The notes beneath the pieces are model-generated. The model saw only the letters and a list, made by a program, of their open reading frames with translations. It had not been told where the DNA came from and did no database searches. A stretch of DNA of 64,000 nucleotides from Escherichia coli (GTDB taxonomy: Bacteria > Pseudomonadota > Gammaproteobacteria > Enterobacterales > Enterobacteriaceae). A program made the position numbers and the translations under genes. This document shows positions 22,840-26,201 of the stretch, in pieces (the first letter of the stretch is position 1; each line of letters opens with the position of its first letter). The stretch lies in assembly GCF_030384885.1 (NCBI RefSeq), contig NZ_CP128613.1; one strand, 5' to 3'.

Positions 22840-24135
22840 TTTGTATTTATGATAATTAAGGGGGGGTGCTAATTTAATATAAACACCCAGGGCAAGATTA
22901 CGAAAGCCCGCTCCCCGCAAGGACTGACGCCAGGTAGTTTCTGTCCATGGCTGCTTTTCGCATCTTACGCCTTAACCCTGCCCTGGATACCTTATCATTC
23001 GTCAAAATATTAATAGCAATGTGCCGTATCCCTGAAAATAATTCTGCTGCGTTTCCTCTTCTTATTTTGCTGTCGTCTTCATTCATTACCACGTCCAGAC
23101 GCCAGTGCAGCTTATTCTCCATGTGCCAGTGGTTTCGGATTGCTGTGGCGAACTTCTCTGCGGTTAAATCAGCAGAACTGATATAATATCTGACCGTCAT
23201 TTCTGGCTCTTTCTTTTGTTCTGCTATTATTGACCGAAAGGAGACTGCCACGCATAATTTCTTCAGACCTTTCCATTCAAACGTGAAATCAATAAGTTCA
23301 TCAGGGACATCGCAAACAATGTGAAGACGGATTTCTTCTCTGCCGTGACTCTTTTCACTCATTGCGTAACTGTCATGCTCTGGATTATTTAATTCTTTCA
23401 GCGGAAATTTTTCCTCGAAGGCTTTATTTAGCCGCCCCTGGTTTCCTTTTACAGCGAATAAATAATCACCTCCCTGTTTTTGTATCTTCTCTGCAATATC
23501 TTTCTGGCAACCCATCGCATCAGTTGTGATGATTTTTTCTTTAATATCCAGCATGTTAAGAAGTTCTGGGATAGCAGTAATCTCATTGGATTTCTCATCC
23601 GTCTTGATCTGTCCGATGACCAGACTGTGCATTGTTGAGAACGCACTAATGACATGAATCGCTCCCCTGCGGCGACTCTTGTCATAAGAGTGCCGGAGCG
23701 TTTTTCCATCAATTGCAATGACGCCTTTATCATCTGAAGAATGGCAGTCACGCATCCAGTTAATAAAGCACTCGTGAAATTTTGCAGGACTGATACAGGA
23801 TACAACTCTGGCAATCGTATCGTGAACAGGAATACCATTTTCAAAATCACCATATTGCTTCAAAAAATCGAGATGTGTTTCCCAAAAATCCTCTATATCT
23901 TCCCAACCTTCTGCACCCGAAATAACGGCGCAAATAGTCAACAGTAGAATATCCGATAATTTATGCTCCACTTTCCAGGCTTGTCTGTAATCGGGGATAA
24001 TAGAAATATGTTCCATCAATTTTTTAAGTACCATTTTGTTCTCCTTAATTATGTAAGGAGTATTTGATCATGTATAAGCAATAAAAAACAGCTTCAGGTA
24101 ATGAGGAATATCTCAATTTTTAAACATAAAATGCG
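22840..24135 (-). mobile_element. ISAs1-family insertion sequence (H-repeat element); ends approximate
   Basis: Contains the 378-aa H-repeat transposase; element ends not mapped. Confidence 0.45.
22898..24034 (-). CDS. ISAs1-family (H-repeat-associated) transposase, 378 aa
   Basis: Characteristic sequence [32 protein letters not shown]...[20 protein letters not shown]. Confidence 0.85.
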
Positions 24136-24203
24136 AATTGTTTAGTACAAAAAAGCAGCGTTAAGTGAGTAGGCCACCGGAACCTCCCCGACAGCCTCTC
24201 GCA

Positions 24204-24237
24204 GAACCGTACGTGAAACTCTCGCTTCATACGGCTC
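24204..24237 (-). other. Group II intron domain V (catalytic hairpin)
   Basis: GAGCCGUAUGAAGCGAGAGUUUCACGUACGGUUC: 10-bp stem GAGCCGUAUG/CGUACGGUUC with G-U pairs and the AGC triad. Confidence 0.8.
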
Positions 24238-24240
24238 CCG

Positions 24241-25758
24241 TCAGGCAAACGCGCTTCCTGGTCCTGCTTTCCAGTGGGCAAACAACTCCGGCTTCTCTTT
24301 TGACAGCCTTTCCATTAGCTGACACGCCTTCGTCTTTCTATACCGCAGGGTTTTATATTTCTTTCTCGCCCACGCAATCAGCGTCAGATTAATATATCTG
24401 CATACTTTCTTCATCGCTGATTTGTGGTATCTCGCGTAATAATTCAGCCACCCCGATATTATCGGATTCAGCCACTTCGCAATATCTTCGAGACTCATCT
24501 CCACCCTGCGTCTGATCCACAGTTTCCTGAGTTTTCCAATCATGCCTTTCTGCGCAAGGTTACTCGCCGCCGGGCTGAAACTCGTAAAGAGGTTTCCCCG
24601 CCGGTGGTTGCGTGCTCTTCGCGCTCTGAACGTATACCCCAGAAAATCAAACTGCACTGTTTCATGGTTCGCCTGTCGTTCGCTGTCTTTGCAGTAAACT
24701 ATTTTCGTTTTCTCCGGATGTAATTCCAGTCCACATTCCTGAAAACGTTTTGCCAGCTTATTCAGTAATTCCTCTGCCTGTTGTTTACTGCCACAATGAA
24801 TTAATCCATCATCTGCATAACGGCACCAGGGAATTTCCGGATAATGTAACGTCAGCCATTTATCAAACACATAGTGCAGAAATAAATTCGCCAGTACCGG
24901 GCTGATGACTCCACCCTGTGGCGTACCTTTATTTCTTTCCTTCAGTGTTCCATCCGGCATCTGCACCGGCGCTGTCAGCCACCGGCGAATAGACAGTCTT
25001 ACCCATTTATCCGCACAATGTTTATCTACTGCCCTGAGTAATAAATCGTGGGGGATATTATCGAATAACCCTTTAATATCAAACTCAAGACACCAGTCGT
25101 ATTGCCAGCAACGTTTTCTGGTGACTGCTATTGCATCCAGCGCTGATTTTCCATGCCGGTATCCGTATGAATCATTCAGGAAATAACGCTCCACTAATGG
25201 TTCAAACGTTACCAGCACCGTCATCTGCGCTATTCGATCGCTTACTGTCGGTATTCCTAAAAGTCTTTTGCTGCCATCCTTCTTCGGAATTTCCACCGCA
25301 CGCACTGGCGGCGGCATCCAGCTTCCCGACGATAACCTGTTCCAGATTTTGTACAGATTTCCTTTCAGATCCCGCTCAAAATCTTTCAGCGTCTGGTTAT
25401 CCACTCCGGCAGCTCCGGCATTCGCCTTTATCCGCCGGTACGCTTCCACCACATGCAATTTACTGACCTGAAACGGTTTTGTCTGTTCACACACAGCCTC
25501 CTCCTGCCTACAGTTGGGCTGTGATGCAGACTGCCCGACGCTGTCCCTTCGCTCCACGTTCATTACAAACGCTTCCTCACTACTACGAACAGCTCTGCCC
25601 CGGTTTCGCACATCGATACTCTCATACTCATAATTTCGGTTATTTGTATTTCTCTCTTGACATTGCGACGACCGGTTCCCGTAGTTCCTGCAAAGAGCCC
25701 GATACAGCGTCATGCCTGCTATACACCGGACACCATTCACGCAGCATTCGGAATTCAC
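24241..25758 (-). CDS. Group II intron reverse transcriptase/maturase (no obvious endonuclease domain); true start probably internal
   Basis: RT motifs including KANAGAAGVDNQTL, GTPQGGVISPVLANLFL and the YADD box (CRYADDGLIHC), then maturase X (PIISGWLNYYARY); no HNH Cys/His pattern at the C-terminus. Confidence 0.8.
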   Translation of the reverse strand: MNSECCVNGVRCIAGMTLYRALCRNYGNRSSQCQERNTNNRNYEYESIDVRNRGRAVRSSEEAFVMNVERRDSVGQSASQPNCRQEEAVCEQTKPFQVSKLHVVEAYRRIKANAGAAGVDNQTLKDFERDLKGNLYKIWNRLSSGSWMPPPVRAVEIPKKDGSKRLLGIPTVSDRIAQMTVLVTFEPLVERYFLNDSYGYRHGKSALDAIAVTRKRCWQYDWCLEFDIKGLFDNIPHDLLLRAVDKHCADKWVRLSIRRWLTAPVQMPDGTLKERNKGTPQGGVISPVLANLFLHYVFDKWLTLHYPEIPWCRYADDGLIHCGSKQQAEELLNKLAKRFQECGLELHPEKTKIVYCKDSERQANHETVQFDFLGYTFRARRARNHRRGNLFTSFSPAASNLAQKGMIGKLRKLWIRRRVEMSLEDIAKWLNPIISGWLNYYARYHKSAMKKVCRYINLTLIAWARKKYKTLRYRKTKACQLMERLSKEKPELFAHWKAGPGSAFA

Positions 25759-26050
25759 CCGTAAATTAATCCCGGCGGTATCATGAAACCTCCGGTTTTG
25801 ATGTCACTTAGGACTAACGACGTTTCAACACAGGTTCGGGTTTACTCATCTCACTGTATCTCACATAGGATCAGATCTCGTCTGATCGTTCCCCCTGCGC
25901 TCACTACCATGGCTCTTTACCACAGCAGCCGGGGTTGTTTGGGACCGACTTCCGACAGCAGATCCCGGTGGGCCTGCCACCATCTCTTCACAAGCTTATG
26001 CTTATTACATGCAAAACGTCCCGTTTTGCATCTTTGTGCCTACGGCACAC

Positions 26051-26129
26051 CGTGATCTTTCCCTGGTCCCTGTCCCGGATTGTAGTACCGGTGCCAGTTG
26101 TAGTGCAGTTCGGATTCGTCGTCATACTG
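26051..26129 (-). pseudogene. Short Rhs core-end remnant (QYDDESELHYNWHRYYNPGQG...), intron inserted at its 3' end
   Basis: Nucleotide and protein similarity to the intact core end at 27150-27230 ([21 protein letters not shown]); preceded by an in-frame stop. Confidence 0.5.
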
Positions 26130-26201
26130 CTAGCCCGGATGGCGGAGCAGTTGCTCTAGTCACTCAGAATATTGTAATAGTGATAGAGTGCAGTGCCGGT
26201 T

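What the first reader, a model, noticed from the sequence alone, without database searches (positions are those of the whole stretch)
24169..26050. Group II intron with RT/maturase inserted between an Rhs core-end remnant and an ISAs1 (H-repeat) element
The minus strand carries a GUGUG 5' end, an ORF with RT motifs including YADD and a maturase X domain, a textbook domain V hairpin 3 nt after the ORF stop, and a domain VI-like hairpin. The IEP shows no HNH endonuclease pattern, consistent with the bacterial En-minus classes. The 5' exon is the last codons of a degenerate Rhs core repeat and the 3' exon leads into the ISAs1 transposase; the intron is co-oriented with the transposase, so the retroelement sits inside a composite Rhs/IS mobile region. 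From memory, MG1655 has no intact group II intron here.
Basis: partly seen in the sequence, partly recalled or inferred. Interest (0 to 1): 0.7.

Follow-up and report, generated by a model that had tools for sequence, protein, structure and literature searches.

The report
Known group II intron in an IS
The finding is a real, complete, self-splicing-type mobile intron (a variant of the catalogued E. coli intron E.c.I9) sitting just inside the end of an ISAs1/H-repeat insertion sequence next to an Rhs locus; it is well formed but already known and ordinary.

Summary
Confirmed. Window 26050->24164 (minus strand, 1887 nt) is a full-length bacterial group II intron. Rfam finds its domain I core (93 bits) and domains V/VI (63 bits). 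Pfam finds RT plus maturase domains and no endonuclease domain. Domains I-III fold with strong covariation across eight related introns. An intron-less allele in another strain fixes both splice sites to the base.

It is a 96.4%-identical, indel-free variant of E.c.I9, whose reference copy is in E. coli ATCC 8739 at the same locus. E.c.I9 is an ORF class D intron, like RmInt1 of Sinorhizobium. The intron is not between the Rhs remnant and the IS. It lies inside the 1291-bp H-repeat/ISAs1 element, 15 nt from its left end, so the 5' exon is the IS terminal repeat.

Full-length copies occur in 83 of 5426 complete E. coli genomes, and 5' stubs in about 2480 more. K-12 has the empty site. The likely mechanism, by homology, is endonuclease-independent retrohoming at replication forks. 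Activity of this copy is untested.

Novelty: already known. Minor extras: a probably mis-annotated start codon, and flank combinations seen only at occupied sites.

The parts
24164..26050 (-). Complete group II intron, 1887 nt, a variant of E.c.I9
   Evidence: Boundaries come from the empty-site allele L003. It is 96.4% identical to E.c.I9 of ATCC 8739, with the same length and no indels. Rfam hits support both ends.
26046..26050 (-). 5' splice-site consensus GUGUG
   Evidence: Read from the sequence. Seven of the eight aligned class D introns start with GUGUG; the Clostridium intron starts with GUGCG.
25677..26047 (-). Domain I (intron nt 4-374), including the Rfam D1D4-2 core at 25864-25981
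   Evidence: RNAalifold on 8 class D introns, with pair counts: 96.4% of cells paired against about 40% in slid controls, and 75 of 123 pairs with compensatory changes. Rfam RF01999 scores 93.1 bits.
25810..25813 (-). EBS2 core UCCU, in the internal loop 25806-25817. It pairs with AGGG at exon positions -14 to -11 (26061-26064).
   Evidence: The same loop is complementary to exon positions around -16 to -9 in RmInt1, E.c.I2 and four other class D introns. For RmInt1 the position of IBS2 at -9 to -13 is experimental (PMC4075523).
25780..25785 (-). EBS1 core CAUGAU, in the terminal loop 25779-25788. It pairs with AUCACG at exon positions -6 to -1 (26051-26056), with one A.C mismatch at -2.
   Evidence: The homologous loop gives 6-7 bp with exon positions -7 to -1 in the six other introns, for example E.c.I2 CGUCCAG with CUGGACG.
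25721..25721 (-). EBS3 (U, intron nt 330), in the internal loop of domain I
   Evidence: Alignment column 340 is Watson-Crick with exon position +1 in 6 of 8 introns, including the experimentally known G-C pair of RmInt1. In the window +1 is U, which is a mismatch. In ATCC 8739 and in the common IS allele +1 is A.
25597..25678 (-). Domain II
   Evidence: Covarying helices.
25537..25595 (-). Domain III. Its invariant terminal loop GUAAU (25562-25566) contains the ATG that RefSeq uses as the ltrA start.
   Evidence: fold_alignment A5.
24241..25494 (-). Intron-encoded RT/maturase. The likely start is GTG at 25494, behind the Shine-Dalgarno sequence AGGAGGAGG, giving 417 aa. The RefSeq-style call starts at ATG 25563 and gives 440 aa.
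   Evidence: Pfam RVT_1 plus GIIM and no En domain. YADD is present, and so is every residue invariant in 8 class D proteins. The C-terminal motif PELFAHW is present. The protein is 57% identical to the RmInt1 protein. The start codon is inferred from homologues.
24204..24237 (-). Domain V, the catalytic hairpin
   Evidence: Rfam RF00029 at 62.8 bits; sequence.
24167..24201 (-). Domain VI, with the bulged branch-point A at 24170, 7 nt from the 3' splice site
   Evidence: Rfam RF00029 alignment and sequence.
22888..26065 (-). Host element: an ISAs1-family H-repeat, 1291 bp without the intron. IRL is 26053-26065, the transposase is 22898-24034 and IRR is 22888-22900. The intron lies after IS nt 15.
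   Evidence: Inverted repeats. Transposase ORF of 378 aa. RefSeq annotates the same gene as ydcC/ISAs1 transposase in L001 and K-12.
26066..26160 (-). Orphan Rhs core-end remnant (..LHYNWHRYYNPGQG..) abutting the IS left end
   Evidence: Sequence. RefSeq annotates it as a partial 'RHS repeat-associated core domain' pseudogene in L003 and L004.

Best explanation
This is a full-length copy of the catalogued E. coli group II intron E.c.I9 (ORF class D, IIB-type RNA, the class of RmInt1). It sits at its usual homing site, 15 nt inside the left end of an ISAs1-family H-repeat, in the RhsE/nhoA region.

Shown here:
- the ribozyme domains, with exact ends fixed by an empty site;
- an intact RT/maturase protein without D or En domains;
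- EBS1, EBS2 and EBS3 loops that face the IS terminal repeat;
- copies at least 99.7% identical in three different loci, within IS copies that are only 79-95% alike.

Inferred by homology with RmInt1:
- The intron is transcribed on the minus strand, through the Rhs remnant and the IS end.
- The protein binds the RNA and promotes lariat splicing at the branch A (24170).
- The lariat-protein particle recognises an intron-less H-repeat end by EBS/IBS pairing and reverse-splices into transiently single-stranded DNA at a replication fork.
- Because there is no endonuclease, the nascent lagging strand primes cDNA synthesis.

The insertion is upstream of the transposase start and leaves both IS ends intact, so it is probably harmless to the IS. 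Whether this particular copy is still active is open.
For: - Identity: Rfam hits; Pfam RVT_1 plus GIIM; 96.4% identity, equal length and the same insertion point as E.c.I9 in ATCC 8739.
- Class D: stated in the supplement of PMC3522654. The protein is 57% identical to the RmInt1 protein, against about 32-45% for other intron proteins on plasmids. The class D motif core PxLFAHW is present.
- Structure: 96.4% of cells paired, and 75 of 123 pairs with compensatory change, against 6-18 in slid controls. Domains II and III also covary.
- Boundaries: empty site.
- Exon-binding sites: the same loops pair with the exons in six relatives and match the RmInt1 experiments.
- Selection on the protein: dN/dS is 0.20 against the ATCC copy.
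- Movement independent of the IS body: the introns are 99.7-99.8% identical, while the first 500 bp of the flanking IS are 79-95% identical, at the RhsE/nhoA, ybgA/phrB and a T6SS vgrG locus.
- Orientation: the intron's sense strand is the G-rich strand (cumulative GC skew of the plus strand is -0.69) and is co-directional with the fork in K-12 coordinates. The invaded strand would therefore be the lagging-strand template, as RmInt1 prefers.
Against: - Activity is not shown.
- EBS1/IBS1 has an A.C mismatch at -2. EBS3/IBS3 is U.U in this copy, and retrohoming of RmInt1 needed a Watson-Crick EBS3/IBS3 pair.
- I could place only one full-length copy per genome. Two genomes gave 3-4 matches to the ORF region, but I could not locate them or show that they are complete.
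- Occupancy is very low: 83 genomes carry the intron, against 2391 plus 5377 unoccupied sites of the two alleles. This fits a decaying element, as PMC3522654 argues.
- The upstream vgrG-rhs operon is degraded in the window, so transcription of the intron is uncertain. Only consensus-level promoter matches were found.
- The same 3'-exon block at all three loci could also mean that the IS and intron moved together.
Confidence: 0.9

Rival explanations
1. This is a structurally intact but functionally dead relic. The copy is inherited vertically or by recombination and no longer splices efficiently or moves, as expected under the selection-driven extinction dynamics described for enterobacterial group II introns.
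For: - I could place only one full-length copy per genome, and occupancy of the available sites is very low.
- About 2480 genomes keep only 5' stubs.
- A third subtype at this same locus has a frameshifted protein gene.
- EBS1 and EBS3 mismatch the local exons.
- The upstream operon is degraded.
- PMC3522654 reaches this conclusion for E.c.I9.
Against: - The open frame is intact and keeps every class-invariant residue, including the Pro of the class D motif that the ATCC reference copy has lost.
- dN/dS is 0.20.
- Near-identical copies sit in diverged IS copies at three loci.
Confidence: 0.45
2. The intron spreads mainly as a passenger. The composite IS (terminal repeat, intron, IS body; 3.18 kb) transposes or recombines as a unit, and the intron does not retrohome on its own.
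For: - Both IS ends are intact around the intron.
- All three window-type loci share the same 10-nt 3'-exon block TAACGCTGCT, even though EBS3 mismatches it.
Against: - The IS bodies downstream of the near-identical introns differ by 5-21%.
- The last two 5'-exon bases differ between loci: CG, TC and CT.
- The TAACGCTGC allele is a common unoccupied site, with 2391 places. Target preference therefore explains the shared block.
Confidence: 0.2
3. The reverse transcriptase belongs to a retron or to some other non-intron RT class, and the hairpins are coincidental.
For: Some truncated copies in other genomes are labelled 'reverse transcriptase/retron type' by RefSeq.
Against: - The GIIM maturase domain is present.
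- Rfam group II models match on both sides of the ORF.
- Domains I-III covary.
- Precise empty sites exist.
- The closest proteins are all annotated as group II intron RT/maturases; the S. meliloti hit is identified here as RmInt1 from its 1884-nt length, exon positions and copy number, since its record carries no annotation.
Confidence: 0.01

Closest known systems
E.c.I9 (E. coli ATCC 8739, NC_010468 2411599-2413485; bacterial group II intron nomenclature, used in Leclercq & Cordaux 2012, PMC3522654)
   Same: - Same length (1887 nt), no indels and 96.4% nucleotide identity.
- Same insertion point, after nt 15 of the H-repeat.
- Same chromosomal neighbourhood (Rhs, ISAs1, yddH, nhoA).
- Same class (D).
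- The published 193-bp and 159-bp fragments are the stubs found here.
   Different: - There are 68 substitutions, 22 of them non-synonymous.
- The EBS1 loop reads UUUCAUGAUA instead of CAUGAUGAUA.
- The window protein keeps the Pro of the class D motif, where the reference has Leu.
- The 3' exon allele is TAACGCTGC instead of AGAAGTACAC.
E.c.I2 (from memory, the intron first called IntB; here strain 118UI, locus L006)
   Same: It is a class D intron of 1891 nt in the same IS family. It has the same RNA architecture, about 71% nucleotide identity, a protein 60% identical, and the same CUCACY 3' end.
   Different: It interrupts the transposase coding sequence (LHWRLD|VVMNED) rather than the IS end. 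Its EBS1 and EBS2 are entirely different and match that site.
RmInt1 (and RmInt2) of Sinorhizobium meliloti, the experimentally studied class D introns
   Same: - 1884 nt against 1887 nt, with the same domain layout and the same EBS1, EBS2 and EBS3 positions.
- The protein has no D or En domain, has the class D C-terminal motif and is 57% identical.
- Both home into insertion sequences. RmInt2 even targets IS inverted repeats.
   Different: - The host and the target IS differ (ISRm2011-2 against the ISAs1 H-repeat).
- The exon positions critical for RmInt1, T-15 and G+4, are C and C here.
- No activity data exist for E.c.I9 in the searched literature.

Membership tests
Group II intron (ribozyme) | 5' GUGYG and a 3' end a few nt after domain VI, with boundaries that restore a continuous exon | tested here: met
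   GUGUG at 26050. Removing 26050-24164 recreates exactly the unoccupied allele GATCACG|TAACGCTGC of L003. That allele occurs at 2391 places in E. coli.
Group II intron (ribozyme) | Domain V catalytic hairpin, and domain VI with a bulged branch-point A | tested here: met
   Rfam RF00029 scores 62.8 bits against a threshold of 40. Domain V is GAGCCGUAUGAAGCGAGAGUUUCACGUACGGUUC. The bulged A at 24170 is 7 nt from the 3' end.
Group II intron (ribozyme) | Domains I-III fold, supported by covariation | tested here: met
   123 pairs, 96.4% paired; 75 pairs carry double changes, against 6-18 in slid controls and 42 in shuffles. Domains II and III are resolved. RF01999 scores 93.1 bits.
Group II intron (ribozyme) | Self-splicing or protein-assisted splicing activity | not testable with these tools
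   This needs in vitro splicing or RT-PCR of ligated exons.
Bacterial ORF class D (RmInt1-like, En-minus) | Protein with RT and X (maturase) domains but no D or En domain | tested here: met
   Only Pfam RVT_1 and GIIM are found. The protein ends about 30 aa after the X domain.
Bacterial ORF class D (RmInt1-like, En-minus) | C-terminal class D motif LX3AX3PXLF[V/A]HW (PMC4615759) | tested here: met
   The window protein reads M-ERL-S-KEK-P-E-LF-A-HW. The core PxLFAHW is exact. L is replaced by M and A by S; the S is shared with the Bradyrhizobium homologue.
Bacterial ORF class D (RmInt1-like, En-minus) | Protein groups with class D proteins rather than with other classes | tested here: inconclusive
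   The protein is 55-63% identical to RmInt1 and five other RmInt1-like proteins, against 32-45% for other plasmid-borne intron proteins. The class D label comes from PMC3522654. No formal phylogeny with reference sets was run.
Bacterial ORF class D (RmInt1-like, En-minus) | IIB-type exon recognition: EBS1, EBS2 and a single-nucleotide EBS3 | tested here: met
   The homologous loops pair with the exons in all relatives. EBS3 column 340 pairs with +1 in 6 of 8 introns, including the experimental G-C pair of RmInt1. In this copy EBS1 has one mismatch and EBS3 is mismatched.
E.c.I9 (named intron) | Same sequence family, length and homing site as the reference copy | tested here: met
   1819 of 1887 positions are identical, with no gaps. 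Both copies sit after ..GATCACG, 15 nt into an H-repeat next to yddH/nhoA.
Retron RT | RT next to an msr/msd non-coding RNA, without a maturase domain or ribozyme domains | tested here: not met
   The GIIM domain and the group II RNA domains are present. No Rfam retron family hit was found in the window.

The most novel reading that the evidence does not exclude
Insertion of this endonuclease-less intron may be accompanied by sequence change right at the junctions.

The observations:
- Occupied sites show flank combinations that have no unoccupied counterpart in 5426 genomes. These are GATCATC|..|TAACGCTGC in MFDS1019527 and GGGGAAGATCACG|..|AGAAGTACAC in ATCC 8739.
- The last 2-3 nt of the 5' exon vary between copies (CG, TC, CT, TCG, CCG).
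- The two 'pure' alleles are abundant when unoccupied.

This could reflect co-conversion of a short exon tract or error-prone completion of the 5' junction during En-independent retrohoming. To my knowledge neither has been described for class D introns.
Probability: 0.15. Interest if true: 0.4.

Novelty: already known. Interest (0 to 1): 0.15.

Why it matters
Mostly it does not. E.c.I9 is catalogued, its distribution and its 193-bp and 159-bp fragments were published in 2012, and RefSeq already labels the gene ltrA.

The modest added value is as follows:
- Base-exact ends and a domain map for this variant.
- Evidence that the annotated start codon lies in a structural loop of domain III.
- The observation that this variant, unlike the ATCC 8739 reference copy, keeps the invariant proline of the class D motif. 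It would therefore be the better candidate if anyone wanted an E. coli-native class D intron for mobility studies or gene targeting.
- A census of occupied and empty homing sites across 5426 genomes.

Tried and rejected
1. I first took CGUGA (intron nt 310-314) as EBS1, because it is perfectly complementary to exon positions -5 to -1. I rejected it after aligning E.c.I2 and six relatives. The covarying exon-binding loop is the hairpin loop at nt 263-272.
2. UCUUU at nt 355 as EBS2 was rejected: it is part of a covarying helix.
3. A plasmid-borne copy (pECTOK-001_1) looked like evidence of horizontal spread. It is the same chromosomal pptA-yddH-nhoA-nar segment carried on that record.
4. Strain 2013C-4282 shows 4 matches to the ORF region. 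I tried to pull out other copies with a chimeric junction query, but the best place stayed at the same locus, so multi-copy status is unproven.
5. An exact-protein look-up for other contexts returned only one 1.9-kb contig.
6. I considered co-conversion as the reason why all window-type copies share the TAACGCTGC 3' exon. That allele turned out to be a common unoccupied site, so target preference suffices for it. Only the hybrid flanks remain unexplained.
7. Literature searches found no experimental work on E.c.I9.
Full report
**1. Observation**

- GUGUG lies at 26050-26046.
- A long open frame encodes a reverse transcriptase.
- A domain V hairpin (24237-24204) starts three bases after the TGA stop at 24243-24241.
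- A domain VI hairpin (24201-24167) follows.

Rfam at curated thresholds reports group-II-D1D4-2 at 25981-25864 (93.1 bits, threshold 36). It also reports Intron_gpII, which covers domains V and VI, at 24239-24164 (62.8 bits, threshold 40). Pfam finds RVT_1 (E 7e-42) and the group II maturase domain GIIM (E 4e-13) and nothing resembling an HNH/En domain.

**2. Exact ends**

Strain P31_YH1_02.21 has the same Rhs remnant and the same IS, but no intron. It reads ...CAGGGAAAGATCACG|TAACGCTGCTTTTTTGTACTAAA. The window reads ...GATCACG[GTGTGCC...GGCCTACTCACT]TAACGCTGC. Because the bases on either side of each junction differ, only one excision restores the empty site: 26050 to 24164, or 1887 nt.

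The bulged branch-point A is 24170, seven bases from the 3' splice site, and the intron ends ...CUCACU.

**3. Identity**

The literature search led to Leclercq & Cordaux 2012 (PMC3522654). That paper lists two E. coli introns that target the 'Rhs IS', E.c.I2 and E.c.I9. [quoted passage not shown]

The ATCC copy is also exactly 1887 nt. It aligns to the window intron without gaps at 96.4% identity (68 substitutions). It sits at the same point of an H-repeat in the same neighbourhood of Rhs, ISAs1, pptA, yddH and nhoA. The window element is therefore a sequence variant of E.c.I9.

RefSeq annotates the same locus in strain 2013C-4282 (99.8% identical) as ltrA, group II intron reverse transcriptase/maturase.

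**4. Where it sits**

The 13 bases CAGGGAAAGATCA at 26065-26053 have an inverted partner, CAGGGCAAGATTA, at 22888-22900, just after the 378-aa ISAs1 transposase (22898-24034).
- From 26065 to 22888 is 3178 bp. Without the intron it is 1291 bp, which from memory is the published size of the H-repeat.
- The intron therefore lies inside the IS, after its 15th base, and the 5' exon is the IS terminal repeat.
- The Rhs core-end remnant (..LHYNWHRYYNPGQG..) starts only upstream of that.

**5. RNA structure**

I collected seven relatives:
- E.c.I9 of ATCC 8739;
- E.c.I2;
- RmInt1 from pSymB. I identified it by its 1884-nt length, by T at -15 and G at +4 in its exons, and by its many copies in S. meliloti;
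- introns from Methylobacter, Marinobacter, Clostridium and Bradyrhizobium plasmids.

RNAalifold on the 5' parts predicts 123 pairs. Of the pair cells, 96.4% are standard pairs, against 38-41% when partners are slid by 1-3 columns. Compensatory double changes occur in 75 pairs, against 6-18 in the slid controls and 42 in shuffles, with 0 of 500 shuffles reaching any measure.

A second alignment resolves two further domains, both with covariation:
- domain II at 25678-25597;
- domain III at 25595-25537.

With domains V and VI from Rfam, the ribozyme is complete.

**6. Exon-binding sites**

E.c.I2 targets a different site in the same IS family, which makes the exon-binding loops stand out.
- EBS1: the terminal loop at intron nt 263-272. 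In E.c.I2, CGUCCAG pairs perfectly with CUGGACG. RmInt1, Marinobacter, Bradyrhizobium, Methylobacter and Clostridium give 6-7 bp.
- EBS2: the internal loop at nt 234-245. It pairs with exon positions around -16 to -9 in all relatives. For RmInt1 this agrees with the experimental IBS2 at -9 to -13.
- EBS3: alignment column 340, intron nt 330. It pairs with +1 in 6 of 8 introns, including RmInt1's experimentally known G-C pair.

In the window copy:
- EBS1 CAUGAU (25785-25780) pairs with AUCACG, with an A.C mismatch at -2.
- EBS2 UCCU (25813-25810) pairs with AGGG at -14 to -11.
- EBS3 is U opposite U at +1, a mismatch.

The ATCC subtype has EBS1 GAUGAU, which matches the common allele AUCAUC perfectly, and its EBS3 U matches that allele's A at +1. 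The C-versus-G difference between the two intron subtypes follows the G-versus-C difference at exon position -1 of the two IS alleles. This supports the EBS1 assignment.

**7. The protein**

- The window protein keeps every residue that is invariant among the eight class D proteins, including YADD. It also has the class D C-terminal motif (published form LX3AX3PXLF[V/A]HW, PMC4615759) as M-ERL-S-KEK-P-E-LF-A-HW.
- The ATCC reference copy has Leu at the invariant Pro of that motif.
- Between the two subtypes dN/dS is 0.20 and dS is 0.11, so the protein has been under purifying selection.
- The ATG used by RefSeq (25563, 440 aa) lies in the invariant GUAAU loop of domain III.
- The homologous start of the other class D proteins corresponds to GTG 25494, behind AGGAGGAGG. 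That gives 417 aa, in line with 416-419 aa for E.c.I2 and RmInt1 (the RmInt1 size is from PMC4615759).

**8. Population picture**

- Full-length copies occur in 83 of 5426 complete E. coli genomes.
- Another roughly 2480 genomes hold only 5' stubs (nt 1-193 or 1-159), as already published.
- There are three subtypes: at least 99% identical to the window (13 genomes), about 96% (ATCC type, about 50 genomes), and about 95% with a frameshifted gene.

Window-type copies that are 99.7-99.8% identical sit at three loci:
- RhsE/nhoA, in the window and in 2013C-4282;
- ybgA/phrB, in MFDS1019527, where IS2 disrupts the intron;
- a T6SS vgrG island, in FDAARGOS_536.

The first 500 bp of their host IS copies are only 79-95% identical. 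The intron has therefore moved between IS copies more recently than those IS copies diverged.

Unoccupied sites are plentiful: 5377 places of the allele ATC|AGAAGTTCAC and 2391 of ACG|TAACGCTGC. Occupancy is thus very low. This agrees with the 'selection-driven extinction' reading of PMC3522654.

**9. Mechanism**

- Shown: the anatomy, the homing site, and the family relationship to RmInt1.
- Inferred from the RmInt1 literature: protein-assisted lariat splicing; recognition of the intron-less IS end by EBS/IBS pairing; reverse splicing into single-stranded DNA at a replication fork; and cDNA priming by the nascent lagging strand, because the protein has no endonuclease.
- Consistent with this inference: the intron's sense strand is the G-rich strand and is co-directional with fork movement in K-12 coordinates. 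The invaded strand would then be the lagging-strand template.
- Not shown: transcription and activity of this copy. The upstream vgrG-rhs operon is degraded in the window, and only consensus-level promoter matches exist.

**10. Unexplained detail**

The last 2-3 bases of the 5' exon differ between copies: CG, TC, CT, TCG and CCG. Two flank combinations found around introns have no unoccupied counterpart in 5426 genomes, at the sensitivity of a 28-base exact word. These are ATC|..|TAACGCTGC and GGGGAAGATCACG|..|AGAAGTACAC.

This might mean that junction-proximal changes accompany insertion. It might equally reflect unsampled alleles or later mutation.

**11. Verdict**

This is a real and complete example of a known element. 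The insertion-site description and the 3' coordinate need correction. Novelty: already known. Interest: low.

Noticed in passing
window 25562-25566 and 25492-25510: The ATG that RefSeq uses as the ltrA start (25563) lies in the invariant GUAAU terminal loop of domain III. The homologous start of class D proteins is GTG 25494, behind AGGAGGAGG, which gives 417 aa instead of 440.
   Followed up: partly
L002 (GB089) 4001-4288; L019 (BL21) 2486-2680: The widespread 193-nt and 159-nt 5' stubs of this intron are each followed directly by a complete H-repeat that starts with its own terminal repeat. This suggests that an H-repeat inserted into the intron and that recombination between the two IS copies then removed the rest. 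About 2480 of 5426 genomes carry such stubs.
   Followed up: partly
window 26051-26053 and 24154-24163; L016, L017, L005, L002, L019: The last 2-3 nt of the 5' exon differ between intron copies (CG, TC, CT, TCG, CCG). Two alternative 10-nt blocks follow the site (TAACGCTGCT or AGAAGTTCAC). Two hybrid flank combinations seen around introns have no unoccupied counterpart in 5426 genomes.
   Followed up: partly
window ~27979 and ~28984: Relative to strain 2013C-4282, the rhs core gene has a 2504-bp internal deletion, and similarity stops inside vgrG. The vgrG-rhs operon upstream of the intron is therefore degraded in this strain.
   Followed up: partly
L005 (ATCC 8739) ltrA: The reference E.c.I9 protein has Leu in place of the invariant Pro of the class D C-terminal motif. 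The window copy keeps Pro and may be the more functional variant.
   Followed up: no
L010 (Methylobacter plasmid) 945-2831; L006 (E.c.I2) 2948-4838: Two related class D introns interrupt ISAs1 transposase genes about 25 nt apart, within the conserved HWxIEN..LHWxLD motif. The association of class D introns with ISAs1 elements therefore extends beyond E. coli.
   Followed up: no
L008 (pECTOK-001_1, NZ_AP018396.1): A 219-kb conjugative 'plasmid' record carries the chromosomal pptA-yddH-nhoA-yddE-narI segment together with the intron. The chromosome of the same strain has it too.
   Followed up: no
window 4682-4740 (-) and 63903-63966 (+): Rfam finds a SECIS_3 element (84 bits) and the RydC sRNA (80 bits). 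From memory the SECIS lies in the formate dehydrogenase-N gene. Both are ordinary features of this E. coli region.
   Followed up: no
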